Shown in pieces: positions 3,010 through 15,809 of a DNA stretch of 15,809 nucleotides. The stretch is from the NCBI GenBank assembly GCA_017303955.1, contig JAFLBC010000021.1, positions 1-15,809 of the forward strand. Reading direction: 5' to 3'. The stretch's first letter is position 1. Every line of letters begins with the position of its first letter. The notes under the pieces are model-generated. The model did not search any database and was not told the DNA's origin. It saw only the letters and a program-made list of their open reading frames with translations. The DNA comes from Acidobacteriota bacterium (lineage in GTDB: Bacteria; Acidobacteriota; Blastocatellia; Chloracidobacteriales; JADJPF01). A program made the translations under genes and the position numbers.

Positions 3010-3053
3010 ATTTTTTGAGCAAAAGTTTTATAAAGTAGGCAAACTTAGATTTC

Positions 3054-3359
3054 TTATTCTTCTTCAGTAGTTTTGTTGTGATAAGCTTCACGAAAATGTA
3101 AAACATTTACGCTATCGTCACCTACAAGAAAAAGAATTCTGTAACGTTGGAAAATAATTTGTCTTATCTCAATATAAAATTCTTCGCTCTCAGGGGCTAA
3201 GGGATGGCGATTTGGAAACGTTTCAAGTTTGGCTATTTCTTTCATTAGGCTGTTAAACCACTTTTGAGCTTGTTTAGCTCCCCATTTTTCGCAACCCCAA
3301 TAATAAGCCCTATCTATTTCCTCTCTAGCTGGCTTTTCTATTACTACTTGGTATTTCAT
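3054..3359 (-). CDS. parE: Type II toxin, ParE/RelE superfamily (ParE-like)
   Basis: 101 aa. The N-terminus MKYQVVIEKPAREEIDRAYYW matches the ParE pattern MxYxVxFSxxAxxDLxxIxxY. The C-terminus RYRILFLVGDDSVNVLHFREAYH matches the ParE consensus YRIxYRVEDDxVxILRVxH. It lies immediately downstream of, and overlaps, a Phd/YefM-like gene. Confidence 0.7.
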   Translation of the reverse strand: MKYQVVIEKPAREEIDRAYYWGCEKWGAKQAQKWFNSLMKEIAKLETFPNRHPLAPESEEFYIEIRQIIFQRYRILFLVGDDSVNVLHFREAYHNKTTEEE

Positions 3360-3660
3360 TTTCTACCTCTTCATTTGTAGTAAAGTTGTGTTTTTGACGA
3401 AACTCTGCTGCAAAATCTTCTAGCTTTTGTCCTTCACCTCTTTTAATTGAGTCTAACCCTTGTTTAATAGCAGCAATGGCCTCCATGCGATCTTTAAGCA
3501 TGATAAGTTCTTCATAGCTTTCTGCATCTTGCACAACCAAAGCAGCTTTTCCATTTACTGTTAAGATTAGAGGTTCTTTTGTTTCTTGCATTTGCTTTAA
3601 GAGTTTTGTTGTGTTGCGTTTAAACTCACTTAAACTTTGTATATCTCTTGTTAGTTTCAT
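3325..3660 (-). CDS. Type II antitoxin, Phd/YefM family
   Basis: The start was reassigned to the ATG at 3658-3660 (MKLTRD...), which sits 8 nt downstream of an AAGGA Shine-Dalgarno sequence. The upstream Met codons of the 3325..3723 ORF lack an RBS. IQSLSEFKRNTTKLLKQMQETKEPLILTVNGKAALVVQDAESYEEL aligns with YefM ([48 protein letters not shown]). GLDSIKRGEG aligns with SIDSLKSGKG. The gene overlaps the toxin start by 35 nt. Confidence 0.7.
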   Translation of the reverse strand: MKLTRDIQSLSEFKRNTTKLLKQMQETKEPLILTVNGKAALVVQDAESYEELIMLKDRMEAIAAIKQGLDSIKRGEGQKLEDFAAEFRQKHNFTTNEEVENEIPSSNRKAS

Positions 3661-3775
3661 ACATAATCCTTGCATTAAATTTAATCTTAATTTGATGTTA
3701 CTAATAAATTCTTTCTTTTGCAAAAATTTTTCTAGGAAGGAAGAAATTTAGGGAAATAAGTCATTTTAATCAACA

Positions 3776-4711
3776 CTAATTAGACAAAGAGAAAAAGCGT
3801 TTTAGTAATTCGTTTTCAGCAGATAAATTAAAAGCTTCTTTGAAGTCTTCTAGCTTGTAAACTTTGCCAAACATTGAAGTAAAATCAACTTCGTTATTTG
3901 TTATTAGTGCAATTGCTTCATCAAACAAGCCATAATTTACAGCTTGAAATGTAATTTCTTTTTTAATTGCAGCAATAAAATCTATAGCAACGGCTTGATA
4001 TTGACGGCTTTTAAGAATTATTTTTCCTCTATGTTTAACTAAATCAATCATTTCTGATAAAGTTTTACTAGTAGCTAGAGTTTCAATTACATAATCATAA
4101 GAATTAGCCTTTAAACTTACTAAATTGTTATTTGGATCAAAGGTTTGAGTATTTTGAAAACCTTTAGCTTGTAATATTTTTTTTATTAGAAGTGAAATTC
4201 TATTTTCTCCATAAATTAACCCTTTTTGCTTGGGGTTTATATCACCTTTTAATACTGCTAATGCTGCTGCAATAGGCTCGCAATAAGCTGCTAATGGAAA
4301 GGGAATATTGTCATTTATTGGATAAACTGATTCTTTGGGAACAATAATAAACTCTGCAAATGCTCCATTTAGGTCAATTCCTAGCATTTTTGTTGATAAG
4401 CAATTATTGGAATTGTTAGCTAGACATTCTTGGCACGTTTTACAAGCAATTACTGGCATTACTGCTACGCGATCACCTATTTTAAGGTGAGTAACATTTT
4501 TTCCTAATGCTTCCACTATTCCAGAAAATTCATGACCTGGAATAACAGGATCTTGGCTTTTAATGCTGCCTTGAGCAACATAAATATCTGTGCGGCAAAT
4601 TCCTGCTATGACTACTCGAATTAACACATCATCATCTGATTGAATTGTAGGATTAGGCCATGTTTTTATGGTTAAATTTTTTCCTTCTTTGACTAAAGCT
4701 TTCATAGACAA
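3776..4711 (-). CDS. Zinc-dependent medium-chain alcohol dehydrogenase (MDR superfamily), atypical cofactor-binding motif
   Basis: 311 aa. Catalytic Zn ligands are present: Cys in AGICRTD and His-Glu in GHEFSGIV. The structural Zn site is CKTCQECLANNSNNC (C-x2-C-x2-C-x7-C). The Rossmann GxGxxG position reads GLIYGENRISLL, which is degenerate. Confidence 0.75.
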   Translation of the reverse strand: MSMKALVKEGKNLTIKTWPNPTIQSDDDVLIRVVIAGICRTDIYVAQGSIKSQDPVIPGHEFSGIVEALGKNVTHLKIGDRVAVMPVIACKTCQECLANNSNNCLSTKMLGIDLNGAFAEFIIVPKESVYPINDNIPFPLAAYCEPIAAALAVLKGDINPKQKGLIYGENRISLLIKKILQAKGFQNTQTFDPNNNLVSLKANSYDYVIETLATSKTLSEMIDLVKHRGKIILKSRQYQAVAIDFIAAIKKEITFQAVNYGLFDEAIALITNNEVDFTSMFGKVYKLEDFKEAFNLSAENELLKRFFSLSN

Positions 4712-4844
4712 TAAATTAAATAATTTTAAATTAAATAAAAAATCAAAAAGTTACATCCGTTACAGGAAATTGTAATATAAAATACTAGGAATCTAAGCTA
4801 TTTTTCTTGTTTGTAAAATAAAATTCTTAAATAAAAGTAAATCT
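4712..4844. promoter_or_regulatory. Divergent intergenic promoter region (ADH on minus, methyltransferase operon on plus) containing an inverted repeat TTACA-GGAAAT-TGTAA
   Basis: 133-nt AT-rich spacer between divergently transcribed genes. A 5-bp-arm inverted repeat lies at about 4759-4774 (ttacaggaaattgtaa). The spacer contains no ATG. Confidence 0.3.
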
Positions 4845-5609
4845 ATGACACAACCAATAAAAAAAGATGAGTGGTGGAAGCCTTTTTATGACGAGTTTTT
4901 TGTTAATCTTTTAACTTTGTGGAAAGACCAAGCAGAAATTGATTTAACCGTCTCTTTTTTAATTAAAGAACTAGGCTTAAAACCAGAAATGACAGTTTTT
5001 GATCAATGCTGTGGGGTTGGAAGCCTTAGTCTACCGCTAGCTAAACAAGGAATAAATATTATAGGCGTAGATTTAAGCCCTGACTTTATTAATAAAGCTA
5101 AATCTCAAACAAATGAAAATGCCCAATTTTATTGTGATGATGCTTTTAAGTTTATTCCCTTAAAACTTTGTGACGCAGCTTTTAATTGGCATACTAGTTT
5201 TGGCTATTCTGAGTTGGATAAAGAAAATATTTTAATGCTAAAAAATGCTTTTGCTTCACTAAAACCTGGGGGAAAATTTATTTTAGATTATCCAAACATG
5301 GCTTGTACCCTAAAAAACTTTGAACGCTCTATGATTAGGCATATTGATAGCAAAGAAGGCGAAATTTTACTTGTTCGTGAAAGTGAAATAAATTTGGCTA
5401 CAGGAATGCTTGAACAACTTTGGACAATTTGTTTGCCAACAGGAAAACAACTAAAAAAACAAAGCTTTGTAAAAATTTATTTACCACATGCACTAACAGA
5501 TATGTTAAAAGAATGTGGTTTTTGTAGGGTAGATATTTATAGCAATGTACTAGGAGAACCACTAAGCTTAAATACTCCTCGTTGTATTTATAAAGCAACT
5601 AAACCTTAG
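4845..5609 (+). CDS. Class I SAM-dependent methyltransferase
   Basis: 254 aa. Motif I is VFDQCCGVGSLSLPLA (D-x-G-x-G-x-G). The post-I motif is IIGVDLSPDFI, motif II is FYCDDAFKF, and motif III is LKPGGKFIL. Confidence 0.75.
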   Translation: MTQPIKKDEWWKPFYDEFFVNLLTLWKDQAEIDLTVSFLIKELGLKPEMTVFDQCCGVGSLSLPLAKQGINIIGVDLSPDFINKAKSQTNENAQFYCDDAFKFIPLKLCDAAFNWHTSFGYSELDKENILMLKNAFASLKPGGKFILDYPNMACTLKNFERSMIRHIDSKEGEILLVRESEINLATGMLEQLWTICLPTGKQLKKQSFVKIYLPHALTDMLKECGFCRVDIYSNVLGEPLSLNTPRCIYKATKP

Positions 5610-5623
5610 TAAATAAATAAATT

Positions 5624-6478
5624 ATGAATAAAATAAAAAAAATATTACCTCAAGATAGCAAACTAAAAGATAGCAAACTAACTAGAAAGCAAATTTATCA
5701 AGGCGAGGTTCTTTGTTTTCCTGCTACAGATGTTTCTAAACAGCTTGTAAGCGATGTATTAGCATTATTAAAAGAGGAGTTAGGCGAAGATGTTCGTACA
5801 GCACAATTTAGATTTTCTGATGAAGAATTTTTTGAGCATATTGGAAAATTAAGAAAAATAATTTATACCCAAACATATTTTCATGATTTAGCTAAAAAAC
5901 TACTAGTTGAACTTAAGTTTATTCCAAATGAAAATGCTTTTGAACCTATTAGACTACGGGTAATTACTCATAAAGGACATGAAAATCCTAAAGCAGCACC
6001 TATTTATTATGCTCATCGGGATACTTGGTATTCGCACTCGCAAGCATTAATTACTTGGTGGATACCTTTGCATGATTTAAGAGAAGAAGAAACCTTTGTA
6101 TTTTTTCCAGAATATTTTAATCATCCAGTAAAAAATGGCTCACAGCATTTTGATTATGACGAATGGATGCTAGATAAACGCCAATTAACAGTTGGATGGC
6201 AGGACAAAAACGCAGGTAGGGAAGCTTTTTATCCCTCTTTAATGGAAGAAATAAGTGACAGTCAAAAAGTAGGCTTTTCTGCTAAAGCAGGAGAAATAAT
6301 TCTGTTTTCTGGGTCATGTCTTCATCAAACGCTTAATAATTTATCAGGAATGACCCGTTTTAGCTTAGATTTTCGTACTGTAGATCTTACAGATCATAAT
6401 GAAAATATTGGCGCACCAAATGTTGATAATCTTTCTCGGGGTTCGGCAATGAGACAATATATCTACCCAAGTAATTAA
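5624..6478 (+). CDS. Putative Fe(II)/2-oxoglutarate-dependent dioxygenase, PhyH-like (phytanoyl-CoA dioxygenase family)
   Basis: 284 aa. YAHRDTWYSH fits the PhyH HxD facial-triad motif (xHxDxxY/W). The distal LHQTLNNLSGMTRFSLDFR fits H-x3-4-N-x2-S-x3-R, which is the second His plus the 2OG-binding Arg of PhyH/EctD-type enzymes. It lies 14 nt downstream of the methyltransferase gene. Confidence 0.45.
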   Translation: MNKIKKILPQDSKLKDSKLTRKQIYQGEVLCFPATDVSKQLVSDVLALLKEELGEDVRTAQFRFSDEEFFEHIGKLRKIIYTQTYFHDLAKKLLVELKFIPNENAFEPIRLRVITHKGHENPKAAPIYYAHRDTWYSHSQALITWWIPLHDLREEETFVFFPEYFNHPVKNGSQHFDYDEWMLDKRQLTVGWQDKNAGREAFYPSLMEEISDSQKVGFSAKAGEIILFSGSCLHQTLNNLSGMTRFSLDFRTVDLTDHNENIGAPNVDNLSRGSAMRQYIYPSN

Positions 6479-6509: not shown

Positions 6510-8363
6510 ATGGCAAAAGATTTTACTATTCGTCGATCTGATGGCACAGAAATAAAAGTTGCTGGCTATAAATTTGCGGCCCCAAATCCTAATGTTAAAA
6601 AATATGCTGGAAAAAAATATGGGGATTCAGAACTTCCTGCCAAAGTAGATTTACGTGAATATATGACTAAAGTAGAAAACCAGGGTAACACTAGTAGTTG
6701 TGTTGCAAATGCTGTAGCAGGTGCTTACGAATATTTAGTTAAACGCTATAAGGGTAAAAACTCATATGATGTAAGTAGGCTTTTTATTTACTATAATGCG
6801 CGTAAATTACAAGGTTGGGAAAATCAAGACGAAGGTTCTTTTATTGCTGATGCTGTAGAAGGGTTAAAAAAATGGGGTGCTTGTTCAGAAGACACTTGGC
6901 CGTTTGATGAAGATATAGTCAATAAAAAACCGGCAGAAAAAGCCTACAAAGAAGCAAAGAATTTTTTAGTAGAAGATGTAAAACTTGTTCCGCTTACCCT
7001 TCATGATTGGAAACATGCTTTAGCAGAAGGTAATCCAATTATTTTTGGTATTTCACTTTATGAATCTTTTGACTCACACAGAAGAAAAGGTCTTGTTCCA
7101 ATGCCGTCCAAAAAGGAAGCATCCCGTGAAGATCATGGAGGGCATGCAATGCTTTGTGTGGGCTATTCTGATGCTGATAGAACTTTTATTGTCCGTAATT
7201 CCTGGGGTAGAAGTTGGGGAGATAAAGGTTATTGCTATATTCCTTATGATTATCTAATTAATGAAAAATTTAATGATGCTGATAGCTGGATTATTAAGCG
7301 ATTAGATAATTTTCCTGATGGAGATCAAGAAGGTTGGGGAGAAGAAGAAAGTGTTATAGAAGAATCTAATACAGAATTCTCCAAAATGACAGATGAAGAA
7401 TACACAGATATGCTTGATGCAATGGGGCCATATCATATTGAATATCGGGTAGCACTGGTTTTAATGCGCGTAATGGGTATAAATAAATCTACTACTCCAG
7501 CTAAATTACAAGAACTAATTACTTCTGTAGACAAACTTCTTACTCAGCTAGGAATTAATGTAAATGCAGAAAAATTAGTTATGAACAGTCTTAATAATGT
7601 TGATAATAATGATTTATTGCGTGAATCCATTGGGCTGCTAGCAAAATATCTGTCTCAAACTATTTTATCTCAACTTAGTGCTGGAACGTTAATCGCTCAA
7701 TTAGGTTTAAGTCAATCTACACATGATTTAATTAAATATGGTTTATCAGAATTAGGAGGCGATTCTTTAATAACAAGTGCTATGGATTGGTTAGGGAATA
7801 TGTTTTCTGATAGCGTTGTAAAAGAAAATAAACAACTTAATACAAATACTAATTCTAGTTCTGATAATACTGATAGTTCTGCTAGCTTGGATGAAACGTC
7901 TGAAGATGAAGTAGAAAGTGAAGATGAAGATATAAGCGAAGATTCTGATGAGGACGAAGAATACGAAGATGATGATGGTGATGATGATGATGGTGATGAT
8001 GATGATGGTGATGATGACGAAGAGGAATATGAAGAAGACGACGATGATGGCGATGATGATGGTGATGACGAGGAAGACGAGGAAGAGGAATATGAAGACG
8101 ATGATGGCGATGATGACGATGATGATGGTGAGGATGAAGAAGACGACGATGATGGCGATGATGGCGATGATGGCGATGATGACGATGATGATGGCGACGA
8201 GGAAGACGACGAGGAAGACGACGAGGAAGACGACGAAGAAGACGACGATGATGGCGATGATGATGACGATGATGATGGCGATGATGATGGCGATGATGAT
8301 GGCGATGAAGAGGAAGAAGAAAAACCAAGTAAGAATAGCAACAGAAAAAAGAGTAGGTGGTAA
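6510..8363 (+). CDS. Papain-family (C1A) cysteine peptidase with a C-terminal helical domain and about 160-residue poly-Asp/Glu tail; no signal peptide or I29 prodomain
   Basis: 617 aa. The oxyanion Gln and catalytic Cys are in ENQGNTSSCVANAVAG, with the same Q-to-C spacing as papain Q19/C25. The His and Asn are in DHGGHAMLCVGYSD...IVRNSWGRSWGDKGYCYIPYD, which matches the papain NSWGxxWGxxGY block. An AGGAG lies 15 nt upstream of the ATG. The N-terminal 45 aa are hydrophilic and are not a signal peptide. Residues about 450-600 are D/E/G/Y only and end KPSKNSNRKKSRW. Confidence 0.8.
   Translation: MAKDFTIRRSDGTEIKVAGYKFAAPNPNVKKYAGKKYGDSELPAKVDLREYMTKVENQGNTSSCVANAVAGAYEYLVKRYKGKNSYDVSRLFIYYNARKLQGWENQDEGSFIADAVEGLKKWGACSEDTWPFDEDIVNKKPAEKAYKEAKNFLVEDVKLVPLTLHDWKHALAEGNPIIFGISLYESFDSHRRKGLVPMPSKKEASREDHGGHAMLCVGYSDADRTFIVRNSWGRSWGDKGYCYIPYDYLINEKFNDADSWIIKRLDNFPDGDQEGWGEEESVIEESNTEFSKMTDEEYTDMLDAMGPYHIEYRVALVLMRVMGINKSTTPAKLQELITSVDKLLTQLGINVNAEKLVMNSLNNVDNNDLLRESIGLLAKYLSQTILSQLSAGTLIAQLGLSQSTHDLIKYGLSELGGDSLITSAMDWLGNMFSDSVVKENKQLNTNTNSSSDNTDSSASLDETSEDEVESEDEDISEDSDEDEEYEDDDGDDDDGDDDDGDDDEEEYEEDDDDGDDDGDDEEDEEEEYEDDDGDDDDDDGEDEEDDDDGDDGDDGDDDDDDGDEEDDEEDDEEDDEEDDDDGDDDDDDDGDDDGDDDGDEEEEEKPSKNSNRKKSRW
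7900..8330 (+). repeat. Cryptic GAT/GAC/GAA/GAG-rich coding microsatellite-like tract encoding the poly-acidic tail, with a recurring (EEYEDDDGDDDD) unit
   Basis: About 430 nt composed almost entirely of GAN codons with periodic GGC/GGT and TAT/TAC. The other five reading frames translate as poly-Ser, poly-His/Arg and poly-Met artefact ORFs. Confidence 0.8.
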
Positions 8364-8426: not shown

Positions 8427-9461
8427 TCAATTTTGGCTGGAAGAATTAGTAAAACTAGAAGTATCTAAATTGCCTGAGCGGATTTCTTCAGAAATATTAT
8501 TAAATTTTTCTATTTGTTCAGGTGTAAGATGATTTCGGAAAGGTGCAAAATTAAATATATCTTCTCTTAAACCAAATTTATATTGTTTGCCTTCCCATCT
8601 GCCCTGTTGAACTAGGGTTGCGGCTCTTAATATTAGATTAGAACTATCATTAATTACACTAGTGATTACTTTTCCTGGAGCAACATCATGTTGATCTTGA
8701 TCACGCCCTATAATTAACACTTGAGGGTATTTAGCTATTTCTTTTATTGCTGTAACGCCGGGATGATCAGTATTTATTGAAATAATATCAACCCCTTGAC
8801 TAACAAGCTCTAAAGCTGTTTGAGTTGCTTTATTTGGATCAATCCATGTGTGTAAGTACCTAATGCTTACTTTAATATTTGGGTCAACAGATTTTGCAGC
8901 TTTTTCAAAAAATACGGCTTCTTCTACATATTGAGGGAAATCATCTCCAACCATATAAGCTATATGTTTGGTTTTAGTCTTCATTCCAGCTATTAAGCCT
9001 GTTAAATAACCCATTTCTCCAAAGCGAAAAGTAATTGCTCCTAAATTACTGTTATTACCAGAGTAAAAGCCATTAACAGCAAATTTAGTGCGGGGAAATT
9101 CTTTAGCTACAATTTGGGCAGGTTCAACATATTCTCCTCCATGTAAAATAACAAAATCATAACCTTGTACTGCGTATTTTCTTGCTTCTGTAACAGCAGT
9201 TTCAGCAGTAACATTTTCTGTGTAAGAAATATTAGCCTTAAGTTTTTCTTCTACTAGTTTTATTGCCTCATAGCCTGCTTGATTCCATGAGTGATCATCA
9301 ATAGAACCAGCTAATAAAATTGCAACTCTAAAATCTGAATAAGTTTTAGCATCTTTAACATCTTCAATATCTATGTTACAGCCTAACAAATTGATGAGTG
9401 TAACAATTAAAAAAAATATAGCTAAAACGGTAAAATTTTTTCTAAAACCTACTAGATTCAT
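8427..9461 (-). CDS. BMP-family (PnrA/Med-like) ABC-transporter substrate-binding lipoprotein
   Basis: 344 aa. The N-terminal signal peptide carries a lipobox (FLIVTLINLLGC-N). The body matches the basic-membrane-protein/nucleoside-binding family: FRVAILLAGSIDDHSWNQAGYEAI, FVILHGGEYVEP, and IAYMVGDDFPQYVEE. Confidence 0.8.
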   Translation of the reverse strand: MNLVGFRKNFTVLAIFFLIVTLINLLGCNIDIEDVKDAKTYSDFRVAILLAGSIDDHSWNQAGYEAIKLVEEKLKANISYTENVTAETAVTEARKYAVQGYDFVILHGGEYVEPAQIVAKEFPRTKFAVNGFYSGNNSNLGAITFRFGEMGYLTGLIAGMKTKTKHIAYMVGDDFPQYVEEAVFFEKAAKSVDPNIKVSIRYLHTWIDPNKATQTALELVSQGVDIISINTDHPGVTAIKEIAKYPQVLIIGRDQDQHDVAPGKVITSVINDSSNLILRAATLVQQGRWEGKQYKFGLREDIFNFAPFRNHLTPEQIEKFNNISEEIRSGNLDTSSFTNSSSQN

Positions 9462-9623: not shown

Positions 9624-11612
9624 ATGAAAAAAGATTCTTTATTGAAACATAAAAAATTAAATACTAATAAGCTTGCCTGGTATGAGTTTTCTATTGCAAC
9701 ACAACTTAGATATGGGTTAGCACTTTCGGTTGTGCTTAGTATATTAATAACAGGAGGATTTTTAATTTATTATAGTTTTCAAGTTCTTTTAAGAGAAACT
9801 AACAAATTGCAAAAAGAACATAGCCGGGTTGCAGCCGAGACAATTGATTCTTATATAGACGATCTTCAAAGAAAACTTAGTTATTTAGCACGTGTAAAGG
9901 GTTTAACCAATCTACCGCAAGCTGAAAAACAAAATCTGCTAGAAGCTTTAACCCGTCATAATGCAGCATATGAAATGGTGGCAATTCTTGATAGTCAAGG
10001 ACAAGTTTTAGCAACTATTTCACCTTATGGCACACCTACGCCAACTACTTTTGCTGATACCCAATTATTTTTACGTACTTTTAAGAAACAGGAAGAATAT
10101 GTTGAATATGTTAGCTTTGATAAGGATGTTAATCAGCTAGTTACTACTTTTGCTGTACCAATTCATAATTTAGAAGATAAAGTTGATGGAGTTCTTTTAG
10201 CAAAAGTTAATCTTAAATTCCTTAATTTTATTGTTTCCCAAACTGATGTAGGAAAAACAGGCTATGCCTATGTTGTAGATGAGAGAAACAAGTTAATTGC
10301 TAAACGTGGTAGTAGTCAAAGTGTATTTAATTTAGAAGATGTTTCAAATCTAGCATTTATTAAAGAACGCTCTATGCTACAAGCTAAATCCTTAAATGTT
10401 TATAAAGGGCTTAAAGGTGTAGAGGTTTTAGGGGCAATTGCTCCTGTTAGAAGTGTATCTTGGTTGGTTGTAGTTGAACTACCAACAATGGAAGCCTACC
10501 AACCTATTTATAATATGATACTTACAATGACGATTAGCTTAATGGTAATAATTATAGTAGTTATTATATTAGGTTTTCTTTTTTCTAAAAGAATTGTTTC
10601 ACCATTTCAACGTTTAACAATGGCTGCTGCACAAATTAGTGATGGAAACTTAAATATCCAAGTTAATATCAAAGCTAATAATGAGTTAGGAATCCTGTCA
10701 AAAGCTTTTAATGATATGGTCTTTCAATTAAAAGAATCTTTTGAAGCTTTAGAGAAAACTAACCAAACATTAGAAATTCGTGTACAAGAGCGAACAACAG
10801 AGCTAGAAGTAGCTAATAAGCAAATTTTAGAGCTTAACGAACGTCTTAAGGCTGATAATTTAAGAATGAGTGCGGAATTAGATGTAACAAGACAATTACA
10901 ACAGATGATTTTACCTAAAGAACAAGAACTAATCCAACTAGCAGATTTAGATATTGCAGGGTTTATGGAACCGGCTGATGAGGTTGGAGGGGATTATTAT
11001 GACGTTGTTAAACAAGGTAATAAAATTAGAATGGGTATAGGTGATGTTACTGGGCATGGTTTAGAAAGCGGGGTAGTTATGATAATGGCACAAACAGCAA
11101 TTCGTACCCTGCTAGCTAATGATGAGAAAGACCCTATTAAATTCTTAAATTCAGTAAATAAAGTAATTTATGATAATACTAGACGTATGAAAAGCCATAA
11201 AAACATGACGCTAGCATTGCTTGAATATGAAGAAGGAATGCTACGTCTTAGCGGACAACATGAAGATCTAGTGATTTTACGTAGTAATGGTGAAATAGAA
11301 CAAATAGACACTTTTGAGCTAGGTTTTCCCCTTGGTATTGAATCAGACATTAAAGCTTATGTAGCACAAACAGACATTAAACTAAATCCAGAAGAAATAG
11401 CTGTACTTTATACAGATGGCCTAATAGAGGCCGTAAATCAGCAAAATGAGATGTATGGTTTAAGTCGTTTATTTCAAGTAATAAAAGAAAGCTCTCATTT
11501 ATCAGCAAATCAAATATGTAGCCAAATAATTGAAAACTTAAAAAAACATGTTGGTAAACAAAAGGTATATGATGATATAACTTTGTTAGTTATAAAGCGT
11601 AAAAAAGCTTAA
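9624..11612 (+). CDS. Membrane sensor serine phosphatase: 2TM periplasmic Cache-like domain, HAMP, coiled coil, PP2C/SpoIIE domain (SiaA/RsbU-like)
   Basis: 662 aa. TM1 is at about aa 31-52 and TM2 at about aa 297-320 (ILTMTISLMVIIIVVIILGFLF), flanking a periplasmic domain of about 245 aa. HAMP is at about aa 321-372. The PP2C motifs are DIAGFMEPADEVGGDYYD, GIGDVTGHGLESG and YTDGLIEA. Confidence 0.8.
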   Translation: MKKDSLLKHKKLNTNKLAWYEFSIATQLRYGLALSVVLSILITGGFLIYYSFQVLLRETNKLQKEHSRVAAETIDSYIDDLQRKLSYLARVKGLTNLPQAEKQNLLEALTRHNAAYEMVAILDSQGQVLATISPYGTPTPTTFADTQLFLRTFKKQEEYVEYVSFDKDVNQLVTTFAVPIHNLEDKVDGVLLAKVNLKFLNFIVSQTDVGKTGYAYVVDERNKLIAKRGSSQSVFNLEDVSNLAFIKERSMLQAKSLNVYKGLKGVEVLGAIAPVRSVSWLVVVELPTMEAYQPIYNMILTMTISLMVIIIVVIILGFLFSKRIVSPFQRLTMAAAQISDGNLNIQVNIKANNELGILSKAFNDMVFQLKESFEALEKTNQTLEIRVQERTTELEVANKQILELNERLKADNLRMSAELDVTRQLQQMILPKEQELIQLADLDIAGFMEPADEVGGDYYDVVKQGNKIRMGIGDVTGHGLESGVVMIMAQTAIRTLLANDEKDPIKFLNSVNKVIYDNTRRMKSHKNMTLALLEYEEGMLRLSGQHEDLVILRSNGEIEQIDTFELGFPLGIESDIKAYVAQTDIKLNPEEIAVLYTDGLIEAVNQQNEMYGLSRLFQVIKESSHLSANQICSQIIENLKKHVGKQKVYDDITLLVIKRKKA

Positions 11613-11638
11613 TTATTTTTAAGAAAGATGGAAAGATT

Positions 11639-12223
11639 ATGGAAGTAAATACAGAGATTTTTGGAGATTATTACGGTCAAGACTCAGATTCTCAGGAATA
11701 TTTAATCATAAACTTTTCGCCTAGTTCTATCCCTCGTAATAGCCGTTGGCGCAATAATGGAATATCGGCTGACTTTTTAGGAGATTATTTTGCTACTTTT
11801 TTTCCAGGTGATGAAATTCCTGGCTCTAAAATAGGTAAACAAGAAACAATAAAAAGTTCTGTTAGTTTTATTGCTAATGAGCTTTTAGAAAATGCAATGA
11901 AATATAGTTTGGTCAATACTAACTTACCAGTAAGTATTGCACTGTATATGTATAATGAAAAAATAGTCTTTATGGTGACAAATCATATTAGTTTAGAATC
12001 ATCAGAGAACTATAAAACTTATATTAAAGAGCTACTTAGCTCTGACATGGATGAAATGTTTACTAAACAGTTAATAAAAGCAAGCTCAGAAGGTAATAGT
12101 TCAGGAATTGGGCTACTTACAATAATTAATGATTATGGAGCAAAACCAGGCTGGAAATTTGAAAAATTGCTTAATCCAGTAGATGTGGTTAAACTAACAA
12201 TTACTATTCAGTTAGAGGTGTAA
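11639..12223 (+). CDS. Small GHKL-fold (HATPase-like) serine/threonine kinase of partner-switching systems (SiaB/RsbW-like)
   Basis: 194 aa. An N-box-like ANELLENAMKY and a G2-like NSSGIGLLTIIN are present. It lies 26 nt after the PP2C gene and 7 nt before a DUF1987-like gene. The family assignment rests on motif-level inference. Confidence 0.5.
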   Translation: MEVNTEIFGDYYGQDSDSQEYLIINFSPSSIPRNSRWRNNGISADFLGDYFATFFPGDEIPGSKIGKQETIKSSVSFIANELLENAMKYSLVNTNLPVSIALYMYNEKIVFMVTNHISLESSENYKTYIKELLSSDMDEMFTKQLIKASSEGNSSGIGLLTIINDYGAKPGWKFEKLLNPVDVVKLTITIQLEV

Positions 12224-12230
12224 AAAGCTT

Positions 12231-12572
12231 ATGGAGATTAAGACAGCAGATTATTATGTTCGCTATGATGAAAACTTAGCTACTATCTTTTTTGGTGGGT
12301 TTCTTAGATTAGAAGGTGTGGACGCTTACAAAGAAATACTAGATTTATGTGTTAATGTATTTGATAAACAAAAGCAAATATCTATGAATCTTACAGATCT
12401 ACAATTTCTTAATAGCTCTGGTATTAGTATGTTTTCTATGTTTGTATTAAAAATACGTGATCTTGGAGATGCTAAACTAACTATACAAGGGTCAGAGAAA
12501 ATTTTATGGCAAACAAAATCACTAAAAAACTTAAAACGCTTAATGCCTAGTATGACACTAGAATTTATCTAA
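12231..12572 (+). CDS. DUF1987/SiaC-like phospho-switch protein (STAS-like partner-switching component)
   Basis: 113 aa. A GAGGTG Shine-Dalgarno sequence lies 10 nt upstream. TIFFGGFLRLEGVDAYKEILDLC fits the DUF1987 N-terminal pattern (tLeisGeSyPEnaxefYxPvlewl). LQFLNSSGISMFSMF fits the phosphosite region YxNTSSxK of SiaC (Thr68 in P. aeruginosa). A conserved Trp lies near the C-terminus (ILWQTK). Confidence 0.55.
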   Translation: MEIKTADYYVRYDENLATIFFGGFLRLEGVDAYKEILDLCVNVFDKQKQISMNLTDLQFLNSSGISMFSMFVLKIRDLGDAKLTIQGSEKILWQTKSLKNLKRLMPSMTLEFI

Positions 12573-12577
12573 ATTTT

Positions 12578-14254
12578 ATGAGTACATTTGACAACCCTAC
12601 AGGTCAAGACCTTAAGCTATTAGAGCAAATAGAAGTATTAAATAAAGAATTAGCATTGCTAAGAAAAACTAACCAAGATCTCCAAATTCAATTAGAAATG
12701 ACAATTGAACATGGGGATGCAGTCGAAGACCAACTTCATAGTGAGATCCAAGAACGTCATCGCGCAGAAGCAGCACTCCAATCAATCCTAGAAATAGTCT
12801 CAAAAAAAAATATGGATCTTGAAATTATTCTTGAAACTACAGCAGAGCATGGCGATCTTATAGAAAATGAATTACGCAAAACTAGTGAAGCTAAAACGGC
12901 CTTTTTATCAAACTTAAGCCATGAATTACGTAGCCCACTTAATACGATTATTGGATTTGCTCAATTAATGAGCCGAGATAAATATCTTAAACAAGAACAC
13001 CATGAGACTTTACACACCATAATGCGTAGCGGGGAACATTTGCTTAATTTAATAAATGATGTGCTTTCTTTAGCAAAAATTGAGTCTGGAAAACTAACTT
13101 TAAGCAAGCGTCTTTTTAATACCAAAGAGCTACTTAGCAGTATTTATAATATGTTTAGGCTAAGAGCAGAAACAAAAGCCACAGAATTAAAATTTGATAT
13201 ATCTGAGAAATTTCCAACATTTGTTTTTGGCGATGAGGGCAAATTACAGCAAGTGCTGATAAATTTGCTCTCTAATGCTATTAAATTTACTGATCAAGGT
13301 AGTGTAAATCTTTTAGCAGATTGGACTAATGGACAAGCTAAATTTACAATTTCTGATACTGGAATTGGAATAGCAGAACAAGACATAGATTCAATGTTTT
13401 TACCTTTTTTTCAAACTGAAACAGCAAGCAAAATAACTGGTAGCACTGGTCTTGGCCTAGCTATTAGCCGTAGTTTAGTTAAGTTAATGGGTGGAGATAT
13501 AAATGTTACTAGTAGCATTGGTAAGGGGACAACATTTTCTTTTAGCGTTGAAATTACTCCATCCCCAGAAGATGAAAATCTAATGGATGAACGCAAAGTC
13601 TTAAGACTAGCAGACGATAGCCACAAATTTAATATTTTAGTTGTAGATAACAACTTAGAACATCAGCTTTTGCTATCTCAATTACTAAAATCAGTTAATT
13701 TTCAAGTTGATGTGGCTGATAATGGAAAACAGGCTTTTGATAAATGGCAAAATAATAAATTCCATCTAATTTTTATGGATATCCGAATGCCTGAACTAAA
13801 CGGAGTTGAAACAACTAAGTTAATTCGTGATAGAGAAAAAGCTAAAAATTTACCTCCTATGCCAATCATCGCGCTTTCTGCTAATGTATTTGAGCAGACT
13901 AGAGACACAATGTTTTCAGCCGGATGTAATGATTTTATAAATAAACCTTTTAGAGAAAGTGAGCTTTTTAATAAATTAGCAGAATACTTAGACGTAACTT
14001 ATATTTATGAAGAGCTAAAAGGAAAATCTGGTAAAGAAAAAATACTAATTAAAGAAAGACTACTTAAATTGCCTAAAGAATGGCTAGATAATTTTCGATC
14101 TATGCTAGCAAAAGGTTTTGTAGAAGATGCTAAAGCTTTAGTTAACCAAGAGCGTAGTTTAGACCCAGAATTATTTGATGAACTAGAAACTTTGCTTAAA
14201 AACTACCAATTTGATGAAATTGATAGTATTCTTTCAGATAACTACACTAGCTAA
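12578..14254 (+). CDS. Cytoplasmic hybrid sensor histidine kinase (coiled-coil N-terminus, HisKA, HATPase_c, receiver domain, conserved-looking C-terminal extension)
   Basis: 558 aa with no TM segment and no recognisable sensor domain. The H-box is LSNLSHELRSPLNTI, the N-box LINLLSNAIKFT, G1 ISDTGIGI, and G2 GSTGLGLAISRSLVKLMGG. The receiver is ILVVDNN...FMDIRMPELNG...IIALSA. A tail of about 100 aa (LPKEWLDNFRSMLAKGF...) follows the receiver. Confidence 0.85.
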   Translation: MSTFDNPTGQDLKLLEQIEVLNKELALLRKTNQDLQIQLEMTIEHGDAVEDQLHSEIQERHRAEAALQSILEIVSKKNMDLEIILETTAEHGDLIENELRKTSEAKTAFLSNLSHELRSPLNTIIGFAQLMSRDKYLKQEHHETLHTIMRSGEHLLNLINDVLSLAKIESGKLTLSKRLFNTKELLSSIYNMFRLRAETKATELKFDISEKFPTFVFGDEGKLQQVLINLLSNAIKFTDQGSVNLLADWTNGQAKFTISDTGIGIAEQDIDSMFLPFFQTETASKITGSTGLGLAISRSLVKLMGGDINVTSSIGKGTTFSFSVEITPSPEDENLMDERKVLRLADDSHKFNILVVDNNLEHQLLLSQLLKSVNFQVDVADNGKQAFDKWQNNKFHLIFMDIRMPELNGVETTKLIRDREKAKNLPPMPIIALSANVFEQTRDTMFSAGCNDFINKPFRESELFNKLAEYLDVTYIYEELKGKSGKEKILIKERLLKLPKEWLDNFRSMLAKGFVEDAKALVNQERSLDPELFDELETLLKNYQFDEIDSILSDNYTS

Positions 14255-14270
14255 ATGTTAGGAATTAAGG

Positions 14271-15809
14271 ATGGATCAAAAACGCTGGGAACAAATTAAA
14301 ACAATTCTTGATATAGCTTTAGAAAAAGATTCCTACTTGGTTGGGCCATATCTTGACAGAGTTTGTGCAGGTGATAGCAGTTTACGTACTGATGTAGAGT
14401 CTTTTATAAAAATGTTTGAAGAAACAAAAGAAAGCAACTCAAATAAACTAATAAATAACATTCCTTCTTATTTACCAAATCTAATAGAAACTACTAAAGA
14501 TCAAAGTCTCAGAACTTCTAATTACAGTGAAAACCAAACAACAAATATAGATTTAAGTGAAATAAATAAAGCTTCTAAAGGAACTATTTTAGTAGTAGAT
14601 GATTTGCCTAATAACTTAAATTTACTATCAGGATTGCTTTCTATGGAAAATTATCAGGTTAGTGTGGCAAATAATGGTCGTCGAGCATTAAAAATAGTTG
14701 AGACTCTTTCCCCAGATTTAATATTACTTGATATAAATATGCCTGAAATGGATGGTTATGAGCTTTGTACTTTATTAAAAGCTAATCCAAAAACTTCTGG
14801 TATCCCTGTTATATTTATAAGTGCTTTGGATGAAGTGCTAGACAAGGTTAAAGCTTTTGAAGTCGGCGGAGTTGATTACATAACTAAACCTTTTCAAACT
14901 AAAGAAGTTATAGCTCGTGTTGAAAATCAGTTAAAAATATTTCGTCTTCAACAAGAATTGCAAAAAAATATTGAAGAATTAGCTAAGAAAAATCAAGAAT
15001 TAGCTGAAAAAAATCAAGAATTGATTGAGTCTTATAGAAAAGCAAATCATATATTTACAGTTCTAGCTCAAGCTTTGCCAGGCACTATATTAGATGACAA
15101 ATACAAACTAGAAGAAAAAATTGGTTCAGGTGGCTTTGGTGCTGTTTATCGTGCTACTCATATTCCTATGAAACGTGCAGTTGCAGTAAAAGTCTTTAGG
15201 CCAAGTTTAGGAAATGACTCTATTAGTGAGCTTGAACGGTTTCAAAGAGAAGCTATTTCTATTTGTCGTGTTAATCATCCTAATGCTGTAAATGTCTTTG
15301 ATTCTGGCATTTCCTCACAAGGTATAGCTTATATTGTGATGGAACTACTTACAGGACATACTTTAGTTAAAGAATTAAAAGAAAAAACAGTAATTTCTTT
15401 ACGTCGTTGTGCTGAAATTTTACTCCCTATTTGTGAAGTTCTTTCTAAAGCACATTCTGAAGGTATAATTCACCGAGATATCAAGCCCGATAATGTGTTT
15501 TTACATCAAACTACTTTAGGTGAAGTAATTAAAGTAATAGATTTTGGGATAGCTAAATTAATTAAAGAAACACCAAGCTTAAAATTTAGTGATTTAACGG
15601 CTGTAGAAGGTTTTATAGGCACTCCTAATTATATGGCACCTGAGAGAATTCAAAATGTTGACTATGATGGAAAAGCAGATGTTTATAGTTTAGGAGTTAT
15701 GCTTTATGAAATGTTAGGAGGCCGGCGACCTTTTTCATCTAGTATAGGTAGTTCCTTTGGCGTTCTTTCACAACACTTAAATGAAATTCCTCCATCAATT
15801 AAACTGCTT
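14271..15809 (+). CDS. Receiver-domain/Hanks-type Ser/Thr protein kinase fusion, 3'-partial (runs off window end in frame)
   Basis: The ATG at 14271 is preceded by AAGGA. The N-terminus is RWEQIKTILDIALEK...LDRVCAGDSSLRTDVESF. The receiver is ILVVDDLPNNL...LLDINMPEMDG...IFISA. A coiled coil follows, then kinase subdomains IGSGGFGAVYRA, AVAVKVF (Lys), IHRDIKPDNVFL, DFGIAKL and GTPNYMAPE. There is no stop codon through 15809 (513 codons). Confidence 0.8.
   Translation, partial: MDQKRWEQIKTILDIALEKDSYLVGPYLDRVCAGDSSLRTDVESFIKMFEETKESNSNKLINNIPSYLPNLIETTKDQSLRTSNYSENQTTNIDLSEINKASKGTILVVDDLPNNLNLLSGLLSMENYQVSVANNGRRALKIVETLSPDLILLDINMPEMDGYELCTLLKANPKTSGIPVIFISALDEVLDKVKAFEVGGVDYITKPFQTKEVIARVENQLKIFRLQQELQKNIEELAKKNQELAEKNQELIESYRKANHIFTVLAQALPGTILDDKYKLEEKIGSGGFGAVYRATHIPMKRAVAVKVFRPSLGNDSISELERFQREAISICRVNHPNAVNVFDSGISSQGIAYIVMELLTGHTLVKELKEKTVISLRRCAEILLPICEVLSKAHSEGIIHRDIKPDNVFLHQTTLGEVIKVIDFGIAKLIKETPSLKFSDLTAVEGFIGTPNYMAPERIQNVDYDGKADVYSLGVMLYEMLGGRRPFSSSIGSSFGVLSQHLNEIPPSIKLL

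What the first reader, a model, noticed from the sequence alone, without database searches (positions are those of the whole stretch)
9624..15809. SiaABC-like partner-switching module whose output is a hybrid histidine kinase and a REC-Ser/Thr kinase rather than a diguanylate cyclase
Five plus-strand genes are packed with 5-26 nt gaps. They encode a Cache-HAMP-PP2C membrane phosphatase, a small GHKL kinase, a DUF1987/SiaC-like switch protein, a sensor-less hybrid HK, and a REC-STK fusion. In the characterised Pseudomonas aeruginosa SiaABCD system, SiaA (PP2C) and SiaB (kinase) set the phosphostate of SiaC. Unphosphorylated SiaC binds the N-terminal coiled-coil stalk of the GGDEF enzyme SiaD. 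Here the fourth gene keeps a stalk-like coiled-coil N-terminus with no other input domain, but it is a HisKA/HATPase/REC hybrid kinase. A receiver-Ser/Thr kinase follows it. This looks like the same switching logic re-plugged into His-Asp phosphorelay and Hanks-kinase outputs. It would chain Ser/Thr phosphatase/kinase partner switching, two-component signalling and eukaryotic-like kinase signalling in a single operon. I do not recognise this architecture as a described system.
Basis: partly seen in the sequence, partly recalled or inferred. Interest (0 to 1): 0.72.

Follow-up and report, generated by a model that had tools for sequence, protein, structure and literature searches.

The report
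Partner-switch module wired to histidine kinase
This five-gene operon is a phosphatase/kinase/switch-protein module (the little-studied slr1658/slr1659 family) whose target here is a histidine kinase; that kinase carries the same N-terminal double-motif segment that relatives attach to c-di-GMP and cAMP/cGMP cyclases, which points to one portable switch serving three signalling outputs.

Summary
Five plus-strand genes lie 26, 7, 5 and 16 nt apart with no internal terminator. They encode a 2-TM dCache-HAMP-PP2C phosphatase, a 194-aa GHKL protein, a 113-aa switch protein, a sensor-less hybrid histidine kinase and a REC-Ser/Thr kinase (560 aa in the full contig).

The kinase's first ~105 aa carry two copies of DLxIxLxTxxEHGDxxExxL. 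This segment (Nmod) is homologous to the N-termini of GGDEF and class III cyclase proteins that flank slr1658/slr1659 pairs (49% identity, E 9e-26). An Nmod gene is adjacent in 69 of 80 loci. Only 288 of 1.84 billion cluster representatives carry Nmod. Of 108 scanned, 69 are GGDEF, about 21 histidine kinases and 10 cyclases.

SiaD also has two SiaC-binding motifs on its stalk, so the output-swap reading is well supported. It remains untested whether the switch protein or the kinase docks on Nmod, and whether the kinase is active.

Kinase outputs recur in at least five lineages. The REC-Ser/Thr kinase is specific to this lineage. No paper I could search describes the mechanism.

The parts
9624..11612 (+). 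p1: membrane sensor phosphatase. Layout is TM1 (about aa 30-52), extracytoplasmic dCache_1 (aa 56-285), TM2 (about aa 294-328), HAMP (319-370) and PP2C/SpoIIE (465-659), with the GGDYYD, GDVTGHG, YTDGL and DDITLL motifs.
   Evidence: Pfam. Hydropathy. Motifs. Weak SiaA match: 133 bits against a cutoff of 700.
11639..12223 (+). p2: slr1658-family (DUF6272-like) GHKL protein and presumed Ser kinase of p3. It has an N-box (ANELLENA, aa 79-86) and a G2-like box (SSGIGLLT, 154-161). An invariant Asn115 sits where the G1-box Asp is expected. A family-specific N-terminal extension carries an invariant SADFLGDYF (43-51).
12231..12572 (+). p3: slr1659-family switch protein with a SiaC/STAS fold. The invariant F59-L60-N61-S62-S63-G64-I65 lies at the N-terminus of helix alpha2 (nt 12405-12425) and is the presumed phosphorylation loop. 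Helix alpha3 (LWQTKSLKNLKRLMP, aa 92-106) is nearly invariant.
   Evidence: NCBIfam NF047705 at 137 bits (cutoff 100). No DUF1987 hit; STAS E 0.051. Alignment A1. Model pLDDT 86.8. Foldseek best hit is SiaC (7e6g_F, TM 0.71), followed by RsbV and SpoIIAA.
12605..12892 (+). Nmod: N-terminal helical docking segment of the hybrid kinase. It holds two repeats of DLxIxLxTxxEHGDxxExxL, at nt 12677-12736 (aa 34-53) and nt 12815-12874 (aa 80-99). The second repeat ends 22 residues before the phospho-accepting His115.
   Evidence: Repeats. 49% identity over 93 aa with one 7-residue gap to a cyanobacterial cyclase N-terminus, E 9e-26. Alignment A4. No Pfam, NCBIfam or PDB relative.
12578..14254 (+). p4: soluble hybrid histidine kinase. 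Layout is Nmod, HisKA (aa 105-171, H115), HATPase_c (218-325), REC (353-467, D401), then a conserved ~90-aa C-terminal helical segment with no conserved His.
   Evidence: Pfam. Motifs. C-terminal alignment. No TM segment.
14271..15809 (+). p5: receiver plus Hanks-type Ser/Thr kinase, cut by the window end (560 aa in L001). REC spans aa 106-217 (D154) and the kinase domain starts at aa 278, with GxGxxG, VAVK, HRD, DFG and APE motifs.
   Evidence: Pfam. Full length. Motifs. Present only in the window's own lineage.

Best explanation
This is a partner-switching system of the slr1658/slr1659 family with a His-Asp phosphorelay as its output.

Proposed mechanism:
1. An extracytoplasmic ligand acts on the dCache domain of the membrane PP2C phosphatase p1. 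This sets the rate at which p1 removes phosphate from Ser62 or Ser63 of the small switch protein p3.
2. The GHKL protein p2 puts the phosphate back.
3. Unphosphorylated p3 docks on the two EHGD repeats of the Nmod at the N-terminus of each subunit of the dimeric hybrid kinase p4. The docking site lies directly upstream of the DHp helix that carries His115, so docking changes the kinase's autokinase/phosphatase balance.
4. Phosphate then flows to p4's own receiver and, directly or through an unidentified Hpt, to the receiver of the Ser/Thr kinase p5.

In relatives, the same switch and the same Nmod drive diguanylate cyclases and class III nucleotide cyclases.

Shown here: gene order, domain content, family membership, folds, homology of Nmod across output classes, and its tight linkage to the p2-p3 pair.

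Inferred, not shown: every binding and phosphotransfer step, the sign of regulation, and the ligand.
For: Operon and domains.

The two small proteins:
- Both pass the NCBIfam slr1658 and slr1659 cutoffs.
- The p3 model (pLDDT 86.8) is closest to SiaC in its SiaD-bound form (7e6g_F, TM 0.71).
- The p3 loop FLNSSGI lines up with SiaC Y65-L66-N67-T68-S69-x-I71. In SiaC, T68 is the phosphosite that inserts between the SiaD stalk helices.

The Nmod:
- The first 100 aa of p4, used alone, found 93 ORFs in the fetched loci at E 2.8e-31 to 2.3e-8. They are the N-termini of proteins next to p2-p3 pairs. The output classes were checked with Pfam on a sample: GGDEF, PAS-cyclase and PAS-histidine kinase.
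- In 80 loci, p2 is adjacent in 79 and an Nmod gene in 69. Nmod-GGDEF occurs in 57, Nmod-cyclase in 30 and Nmod-histidine kinase in 4.
- The repeats are spaced 53 aa apart. In the window's clade the spacing is 46 aa, seven residues (one coiled-coil heptad) fewer.
- A profile search of 1.84 billion representatives found only 288 Nmod clusters. Of 108 scanned with Pfam, 69 are GGDEF, 21-22 histidine kinases and 10 cyclases.
- Gene fusions Nmod-GGDEF-p2 exist in 7 clusters. In one locus checked, p3 and a PP2C gene lie downstream.
- Independent loci with a histidine kinase output: L089, L091 (HK-REC-Hpt | p2 | p3 | PP2C), L077 and L094.

Precedents:
- SiaD carries two conserved SiaC-binding motifs on its stalk, in a 2:4 complex.
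- STAS-type switches that activate cyclases are known: HsbA-HsbD and BgrV-BgrR.
Against: - No interaction or phosphorylation was tested or modelled.
- p2 lacks the canonical DxGxG G1 box: an invariant Asn115 takes the place of the Asp. It could therefore be a weak kinase or a pseudokinase.
- p2's invariant N-terminal extension and its anti-sigma-like fold leave open that p2, not p3, is what binds Nmod.
- Nmod has no detectable sequence similarity to the SiaD stalk or to any solved structure. The SiaD parallel is therefore analogy.
- The EHGD motif contains a Gly, so Nmod may be a helical bundle rather than a straight stalk.
- p4 has no Hpt domain, so transfer to p5 is not explained.
- Some Nmod histidine kinases are orphans far from any p2-p3 pair (L087, L090).
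Confidence: 0.6

Rival explanations
1. Classical anti-sigma logic with an enzyme in place of sigma. The GHKL protein p2 is the direct binder and inhibitor of the Nmod repeats, as RsbW binds sigma B. Unphosphorylated p3 only pulls p2 away, and p1 controls p3. The wiring and the output are the same as in the best explanation, but the protein that touches the kinase differs.
For: - p2 carries an invariant ~65-aa N-terminal extension (SADFLGDYF) with no role in the GHKL core.
- Nmod-GGDEF-p2 fusion proteins tether p2 to the output.
- The degenerate G1 box fits a protein whose main job is binding.
Against: - p3 is closest to SiaC, which binds its target's stalk directly through the same N-[ST]-S loop.
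- Two equivalent repeats per chain match the 2:4 SiaD:SiaC stoichiometry.
- The N-box catalytic Glu and Mg-binding Asn of p2 are invariant, which argues for retained ATP chemistry.
Confidence: 0.22
2. An ordinary STAS/anti-sigma partner switch that controls a sigma factor encoded elsewhere. On this view the histidine kinase and the Ser/Thr kinase are unrelated neighbours, or an upstream input that feeds the switch.
For: - p3 has a weak anti-sigma-antagonist signal (TIGR00377, E 1.3e-4). Some relatives hit STAS_2.
- p2 has an anti-sigma-like fold.
- Receiver-PP2C phosphatases occur in some relatives (L009, L049, L064), so two-component input into such switches exists.
Against: - p3 is below every STAS cutoff (21.8 against 53.45 bits; Pfam STAS E 0.051).
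- 69 of 80 loci place an Nmod-bearing enzyme next to the pair, and Nmod is very rare elsewhere (288 clusters in 1.84 billion).
- No sigma factor gene lies in the window or among the called genes of the contigs shown with Pfam annotation. The 80 loci were not scanned for sigma factors.
- The window's p1 has its own Cache sensor and no receiver domain, so the kinase is not needed as input.
Confidence: 0.05
3. The two small proteins are a scaffold or adaptor pair without phosphorylation. p2 is a pseudokinase, and they assemble Nmod enzymes into a complex whose activity is set by p1 acting on another substrate.
For: - An invariant Asn replaces the G1-box Asp, and no DxGxG is present.
- No sequence-level hit to any solved kinase.
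Against: - The Ser-Ser pair of p3 is invariant at exactly the phosphosite position of SiaC, SpoIIAA and RsbV.
- A PP2C gene is linked in 41 of 80 loci, many of which are truncated.
- p2's N-box and G2-like box are invariant.
Confidence: 0.08

Closest known systems
SiaABCD of Pseudomonas aeruginosa (PDB 6KKO, 6KKP, 7E6G; eLife 2021, PMC8457831; PLoS One 2020, PMC7647112)
   Same: - Gene logic: a membrane HAMP-PP2C phosphatase, a small GHKL kinase, a small phosphorylatable switch protein, then an output enzyme with a helical N-terminal region.
- The best PDB fold matches of p2 and p3 are SiaB and SiaC.
- The switch loop L-N-[ST]-S-x-I is shared.
- The output carries two repeated, conserved motifs in its N-terminal helices.
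   Different: - There is no family membership by sequence. SiaA scores 133 of 700 bits and SiaB 20 of 85 bits, and DUF1987 gives no hit.
- Nmod has no detectable similarity to the SiaD stalk.
- The output here is a hybrid histidine kinase plus a REC-Ser/Thr kinase, not a diguanylate cyclase.
- p1 adds a dCache sensor.
Slr1657-Slr1658-Slr1659 locus of Synechocystis sp. PCC 6803 (Zer et al. 2018, Plant J, doi 10.1111/tpj.13770, known here only through papers that cite it)
   Same: - p2 passes the slr1658 equivalog model and p3 passes the slr1659 superfamily model.
- Slr1657 is listed as 'XXX-GGDEF'. This fits the Nmod-GGDEF | p2 | p3 order seen in 57 of 80 loci.
   Different: - The Synechocystis and general cyanobacterial outputs are GGDEF and class III cyclase proteins. 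The window has a histidine kinase and a Ser/Thr kinase, and it comes from Blastocatellia MAGs.
- Only genetics is published: an iron-recovery defect and about 1000-fold pgr5 de-repression. [quoted passage not shown]
- I did not fetch the Synechocystis locus itself.
HptB-HsbR-HsbA-HsbD (P. aeruginosa) and BgrU/V/W-BgrR (Sinorhizobium meliloti)
   Same: A STAS-type switch protein whose phosphostate is set by a PP2C/kinase couple and which controls an enzyme by direct binding rather than a sigma factor (as described).
   Different: - Those outputs are diguanylate cyclases, and their switch proteins are canonical STAS domains.
- No shared docking module across several enzyme classes has been reported for them. 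Whether their outputs carry anything like Nmod was not tested here.
RsbU/RsbV/RsbW and SpoIIE/SpoIIAA/SpoIIAB sigma-factor partner switches; RsbRST stressosome modules next to two-component genes (Vibrio vulnificus, PMC9237108)
   Same: - The same three-part chemistry: a PP2C, a GHKL Ser kinase and a small alpha/beta switch protein with a Ser at the start of helix alpha2.
- Stressosome loci associated with two-component proteins show that switch modules have been seen next to histidine kinases before.
   Different: - No sigma factor is present.
- p3 is below the STAS cutoffs.
- In V. vulnificus the link to the downstream two-component protein is genomic only. The tested interaction was negative, and the proposed contact is through RsbT, not through a docking module.

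Membership tests
slr1658 / slr1659 regulator pair (NCBIfam NF052618, NF047703, NF047705) | The 194-aa protein scores above the curated cutoffs of the slr1658 models. | tested here: met
   NF052618 at 241.1 bits (cutoff 200) and NF047703 at 206.4 bits (cutoff 100), both full length.
slr1658 / slr1659 regulator pair (NCBIfam NF052618, NF047703, NF047705) | The 113-aa protein scores above the curated cutoff of the slr1659 model and lies immediately downstream of the slr1658-like gene. | tested here: met
   NF047705 at 136.9 bits (cutoff 100). The gap is 7 nt. The same adjacency holds in 79 of 80 loci.
SiaABCD system | SiaC: a DUF1987 (Pfam) switch protein. | tested here: not met
   No DUF1987 hit at E<=0.01 or E<=1. 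The p3-family profile does not hit SiaC among PDB sequences at E<=10. At fold level only, SiaC is the best PDB match (TM 0.71).
SiaABCD system | SiaB-family kinase (NF038262). | tested here: not met
SiaABCD system | SiaA equivalog phosphatase (NF038263). | tested here: not met
   133 bits against a cutoff of 700. The domain order HAMP-PP2C is shared, and the match spans aa 144-657.
SiaABCD system | The output is a diguanylate cyclase whose N-terminal stalk carries two conserved binding motifs for the switch protein. | tested here: inconclusive
   Two conserved repeats are present upstream of the catalytic core. However, the enzyme is a histidine kinase, the repeats show no similarity to SiaD, and binding is untested.
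Canonical STAS anti-sigma-factor antagonist / sigma-factor partner switch | The switch protein passes the STAS or anti-anti-sigma models. | tested here: not met
   TIGR00377 at 21.8 bits against 53.45. Pfam STAS E 0.051, 13.8 bits against 22.6. The fold is STAS-like (RsbV TM 0.63, SpoIIAA 0.59).
Canonical STAS anti-sigma-factor antagonist / sigma-factor partner switch | A target sigma factor is encoded with, or bound by, the GHKL protein. | tested here: not met
   There is no sigma factor gene in the window or among the called genes of the contigs shown with Pfam annotation. The 80 fetched loci were not scanned for sigma factors. Binding cannot be tested with these tools.
GHKL Ser/Thr protein kinase (SpoIIAB/RsbW/SiaB type) | Bergerat ATP-binding fold with an N-box (ExxxN), a G1 box (DxGxG) and a G2 box. 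| tested here: inconclusive
   The fold is met. N-box E81/N85 and the G2-like box are invariant. The G1 Asp is replaced by an invariant Asn115, with no Gly pair. Activity cannot be tested here.
Pfam DUF6272 (PF19788) | Score above the gathering threshold. | tested here: not met
   24.2 bits against 26.6 for the window protein. Many close relatives carry the precomputed PF19788 hit, so this is a borderline member.
Hybrid histidine kinase (two-component system) | HisKA with a phospho-accepting His, HATPase_c with N/G1/G2 boxes, and a receiver with an acceptor Asp. | tested here: met
   Pfam E 1e-19, 9.8e-28 and 1.8e-26. H115, NLLSNAIKF, DTGIGI, GLGLAIS and FMDIRMP are present. No Hpt domain.
Hanks-type Ser/Thr kinase with receiver input | A REC domain followed by a complete Pkinase catalytic core. 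| tested here: met
   REC E 4.4e-30 and Pkinase E 1.1e-50. The GxGxxG, VAVK, HRD, DFG and APE motifs are present. The C-terminal 47 aa lie outside the window.

The most novel reading that the evidence does not exclude
Nmod (two EHGD repeats in about 110 helical residues) is an undescribed, portable docking domain. Through it, one phospho-switch pair (slr1658/slr1659 type) commands several enzyme classes in cis and in trans: diguanylate cyclases, class III adenylate/guanylate cyclases and histidine kinases.

On this reading a single Ser phosphorylation event would set c-di-GMP, cAMP/cGMP and His-Asp signalling together. In this Blastocatellia lineage it would also reach a eukaryote-like Ser/Thr kinase. 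It would also explain the unexplained Slr1658 phenotype in Synechocystis through the neighbouring Nmod-GGDEF protein Slr1657.
Probability: 0.5. Interest if true: 0.8.

Novelty: new variant of a known kind. Interest (0 to 1): 0.68.

Why it matters
Partner switching is best known as a way to free sigma factors. A few cases (SiaABCD, HsbA-HsbD, BgrV-BgrR) show that it can also switch on a diguanylate cyclase.

The evidence here points to something broader. A specific docking segment makes the switch modular, so the same kinase/phosphatase/switch trio is found plugged into c-di-GMP synthesis, cyclic-nucleotide synthesis and histidine-kinase phosphorelays.

If that is confirmed, several things follow:
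- It would be a clear case of a Ser/Thr phospho-switch controlling a histidine kinase through a dedicated adaptor site.
- It would give a testable mechanism for the Synechocystis Slr1658 regulator, for which citing papers say the signalling chain is unknown.
- It would define a new domain family for annotation. These N-termini are currently 'XXX' or unannotated.
- It would offer a compact, transplantable control handle for engineering kinases and cyclases.

The window's version is also a rare example of PP2C/GHKL, His-Asp and Hanks-kinase signalling chained in a single operon.

Tried and rejected
1. DUF1987/SiaC and SiaB family membership was rejected at the sequence level and kept only at fold level.

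2. PDB sequence searches with p2 and p3, as single sequences and as profiles, gave nothing significant. SpoIIAA appeared only at E about 0.7.

I rebuilt the alignment from database hits.

4. The word-indexed protein search with the Nmod alignment returned only 12 short fragments and was of little use. The exhaustive representative search replaced it.

5. I looked for an Hpt domain in the conserved C-terminal ~90 aa of p4. There is no conserved His and no model hit.

6. I tested whether the downstream Ser/Thr kinase is a conserved part of the module. It is not: in L025 it lies behind two opposite-strand genes, and it is absent in the other histidine-kinase loci.

7. I tested whether Nmod resembles the SiaD stalk or any solved structure. 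Only generic coiled-coil noise came back.

8. Literature searches for DUF6272, slr1657/1659/1660, partner switching with cyanobacterial cyclases, and partner switching with histidine kinases found no description of the mechanism. Slr1660 turned out to be unrelated (DUF3172).

9. I considered inter-protein covariation between p3 or p2 and Nmod and dropped it. There are too few, too closely related sequences, and the interface residues are nearly invariant.

Full report
**1. What is in the sequence**

The region holds five plus-strand ORFs at 9624-11612, 11639-12223, 12231-12572 and 12578-14254, plus one starting at 14271 that runs off the window. They are separated by 26, 7, 5 and 16 nt. There is no plus-strand terminator-like site between them.

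The same DNA occurs on contig JADJPF010000024.1 of GCA_016713405.1, a MAG labelled Blastocatellia. There the fifth gene is 560 aa, and the next gene lies on the other strand. Identical proteins occur in several independent Blastocatellia/Acidobacteria MAGs. Public records annotate them only as 'SpoIIE family protein phosphatase', 'ATP-binding protein', 'hypothetical protein', 'response regulator' and 'protein kinase'.

Pfam gives these domains:
- p1: dCache_1, HAMP and SpoIIE/PP2C.
- p4: HisKA, HATPase_c and REC.
- p5: REC and Pkinase.

p1 has two hydrophobic segments around the Cache domain, while the other four proteins are soluble. All catalytic motifs of the phosphatase, the histidine kinase, both receivers and the Hanks kinase are intact.

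**2. The two small proteins**

- p3 has no Pfam hit at all. There is no DUF1987 hit even at E<=1, and STAS scores only E 0.051.
- p2 is a sub-threshold DUF6272 match and a very weak SiaB-family match (20 bits against a cutoff of 85).
- Both pass curated NCBIfam models. p2 passes slr1658_cyano (241 bits, cutoff 200) and slr1658_superfam. p3 passes slr1659_superfam (137 bits, cutoff 100).

- The p3 model (pLDDT 86.8) matches SiaC best: 7e6g_F, the SiaD-bound form, at TM 0.71, and apo 6kkp at 0.70. RsbV (0.63) and SpoIIAA (0.59) follow.

Conserved features of p3 across 25 family members:
- F59-L60-N61-S62-S63-G64-I65 is invariant and sits at the N-terminus of helix alpha2.
- From the residue names given in the SiaC papers (Y65, L66, N67, T68, S69, I71), this is the same loop as in SiaC. 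There T68 is the phosphosite that inserts between the SiaD stalk helices.
- Helix alpha3 is also almost invariant.

Conserved features of p2:
- An invariant N-box (E81...N85) and a G2-like box are present.
- An invariant Asn115 takes the place of the G1-box Asp.
- An invariant N-terminal extension (SADFLGDYF) lies outside the GHKL core.
- Whether p2 is an active kinase is therefore open.

**3. The key result: the kinase N-terminus is a shared docking module**

A scan of one genome per species found relatives of p3 in 367 species. The best 80 loci are almost all cyanobacterial.

I searched the ORFs of those loci with pieces of the window's proteins. Unexpectedly, the first 100 aa of the histidine kinase matched 93 ORFs at E 2.8e-31 to 2.3e-8. 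These are the N-termini of the genes that flank the p2-p3 pair.

Pfam on a sample shows what these genes are:
- proteins of about 290 aa with this N-terminus followed by GGDEF;
- proteins of about 600 aa with this N-terminus followed by PAS domains and a class III cyclase domain;
- one protein with this N-terminus followed by PAS domains and a hybrid histidine kinase.

The shared segment, called Nmod here, is about 110 residues. It has two copies of DLxIxLxTxxEHGDxxExxL, nearly always 53 residues apart.
- In the window's kinase the copies are at aa 34-53 and 80-99. That is 46 residues apart, seven residues (one coiled-coil heptad) fewer.
- The second copy ends 22 residues before His115.
- Pairwise, the kinase N-terminus is 49% identical over 93 residues, with a single 7-residue gap, to a cyanobacterial cyclase N-terminus (E 9e-26).

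**4. How tight and how wide the association is**

Counts in 80 loci:

| Feature next to p3 | Loci |
|---|---|
| p2 | 79 |
| any Nmod gene | 69 |
| Nmod-GGDEF | 57 |
| Nmod-cyclase | 30 |
| both GGDEF and cyclase | 21 |
| Nmod-histidine kinase | 4 |
| PP2C gene (many contigs are truncated) | 41 |

The linked PP2C genes carry varied inputs, including REC, HAMP, PAS and Cache.

An exhaustive profile search of 1.84 billion cluster representatives found only 288 with Nmod at E<=1e-3. Of 108 representatives of at least 200 aa:

| Pfam family | Representatives |
|---|---|
| GGDEF | 69 |
| HATPase_c / HisKA | 22 / 21 |
| REC | 12 |
| Guanylate_cyc | 10 |
| DUF6272 | 4 |
| EAL | 2 |
| Hpt | 1 |

My own domain labelling found seven Nmod-GGDEF-p2 fusion proteins. 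One of them sits in a three-gene system with p3 and a PP2C gene downstream (L092).

Histidine-kinase outputs next to the pair recur in several lineages:
- L021, L025 and L089 have the same 46-residue spacing and come from non-cyanobacterial MAGs.
- L077 reads Nmod-GGDEF | Nmod-PAS-PAS-HK-REC | REC-EAL.
- L094-96 read p2 | p3 | Nmod-GGDEF | Nmod-HK-REC.
- L091 reads Nmod-HK-REC-Hpt | p2 | p3 | PP2C, on a non-cyanobacterial contig, with all the diagnostic motifs present.

Two cyanobacterial Nmod histidine kinases are orphans far from any pair (L087, L090). This suggests control in trans.

The REC-Ser/Thr kinase follows the histidine kinase only in the window's own lineage.

Nmod has no Pfam or NCBIfam model and no relative among solved structures. 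Only coiled-coil noise came back, and SiaD was not hit.

**5. Mechanism**

The best-supported reading, at about 0.6, is Sia-type partner switching.
- The Cache-regulated phosphatase p1 and the GHKL protein p2 set the phosphostate of p3 at S62 or S63.
- Unphosphorylated p3 docks on the two Nmod repeats of the dimeric kinase, just upstream of the DHp helix, and changes its activity.
- Phosphate then moves to the receivers of p4 and p5.

The published SiaC-SiaD structure provides the precedent. It shows two SiaD chains and four SiaC molecules on two conserved stalk motifs, with binding abolished by phosphorylation of T68.

What is shown here is anatomy, family membership, folds, homology and genomic linkage. 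Every contact and every phosphotransfer is inferred.

The main rival, at about 0.22, keeps the wiring but has p2 clamp Nmod as an anti-sigma factor would, with p3 acting as its antagonist. It is supported by p2's fold neighbours, its invariant extra N-terminal segment, its degenerate G1 box and the GGDEF-p2 fusions.

Two further readings are unlikely:
- An ordinary sigma-factor switch, because Nmod is so rare and so tightly linked to the pair.
- A non-phosphorylating adaptor pair, because the Ser-Ser loop is invariant and a PP2C gene is regularly linked.

Open problems:
- p4 has no Hpt domain. Its conserved C-terminal ~90 aa lack a conserved His.
- The sign of regulation and the Cache ligand are unknown.

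**6. Comparison with what is known**

- **Working logic.** It most resembles SiaABCD. Membership fails on every sequence criterion tested (SiaA, SiaB, DUF1987), and the output enzyme differs.
- **Family.** It is a member of the slr1658/slr1659 pair. For that pair the only experimental work I could trace is genetic. [quoted passage not shown] The original paper is not in the library.
- **Slr1657.** A 2023 review lists Slr1657 as 'XXX-GGDEF'. This fits Nmod-GGDEF, although I did not fetch the Synechocystis locus.
- **Other enzyme-controlling switches.** STAS switches that control diguanylate cyclases (HsbA-HsbD, BgrV-BgrR) are known. Stressosome modules next to two-component genes have been noted, but without a demonstrated contact.
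- **Literature.** No paper in the searchable library describes Nmod, its sharing among enzyme classes, or a partner-switch protein docking on a histidine kinase. This library lacks most subscription journals, so the absence is not proof.

**7. Verdict**

The finding is real, and its central idea survives testing in a stronger and more general form than proposed. Its family labels were wrong, its claim of uniqueness was overstated, and its fifth gene is a lineage-specific add-on.

I rate it a new variant of a known kind: partner-switching systems with enzyme outputs. Interest is 0.68. The most novel reading still open is that Nmod is a portable docking domain through which one phospho-switch commands c-di-GMP, cyclic-nucleotide and His-Asp outputs. 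I give that a probability of about 0.5 and an interest of 0.8 if true.

Noticed in passing
window 6510-8363 (+), repeat array 7963-8320: A 617-aa papain-like (Peptidase_C1) protein ends in a ~120-aa run of almost pure Asp/Glu. The run is encoded by a GAT/GAA-rich tandem array, which explains the strong GC skew and the nested ORFs on both strands there. The NCBI record splits this region into three genes.
   Followed up: partly
window 3054-3723 (-): A ParE-toxin / Phd-YefM-antitoxin type II pair lies between an asparagine-synthase/AMP-binding gene pair and an alcohol-dehydrogenase gene.
   Followed up: no
window 8427-9461 (-): A Bmp/PnrA-like substrate-binding lipoprotein is transcribed divergently from the operon, across a 162-nt intergenic region. 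The same arrangement is seen on three other contigs that carry an identical switch protein and are probably the same organism (L002, L003, L006). It may hint at the ligand class sensed by the dCache domain of p1.
   Followed up: no
window 83-6478: AMP-binding enzyme, asparagine synthase, zinc alcohol dehydrogenase, SAM methyltransferase and a PhyH-like dioxygenase lie together upstream of the papain-like protease. This may be a small modification or biosynthesis cluster.
   Followed up: no
L087:6001-8034 and L090:7001-8923: These cyanobacterial Nmod histidine kinases have no slr1658/slr1659 pair within 6-7 kb. One switch pair may therefore control several Nmod enzymes in trans.
   Followed up: partly
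P0259, P0295, P0302, P0319, P0325, P0334, P0336; L092:6001-9527: In these fusion proteins Nmod-GGDEF is joined to the slr1658-like GHKL domain. In L092 the fusion is followed by the switch protein and a PP2C phosphatase, giving a three-gene version of the system in a non-cyanobacterial context.
   Followed up: partly
L091:7001-11854: This contig carries Rnf genes and is not cyanobacterial. It encodes Nmod-HK-REC-Hpt, then the GHKL protein, the switch protein and a PP2C. The order is reversed relative to the window, and an Hpt domain is present that the window's kinase lacks.
   Followed up: yes
window 13988-14254 (p4 aa 471-558): A ~90-aa helical C-terminal segment after the receiver is conserved in other Nmod-HK-REC proteins. 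It has no conserved His and no Pfam or NCBIfam model. Its role is unknown.
   Followed up: partly
window 11639-11836 (p2 aa 1-66): The family-specific N-terminal extension of the GHKL protein has the invariant motif RW-N-G-SADFLGDYF-FFPG. It lies outside the kinase core and has no counterpart in the best-matching solved anti-sigma kinases.
   Followed up: no
whole window; L007, L021, L025, L073: The module is otherwise almost purely cyanobacterial, yet it sits at 55-60% identity in a 32% GC Blastocatellia genome. Related contigs carry conflicting MAG labels (Clostridia, Acidobacteriota, Rhizobium). This suggests horizontal transfer, unreliable binning, or both.
   Followed up: no
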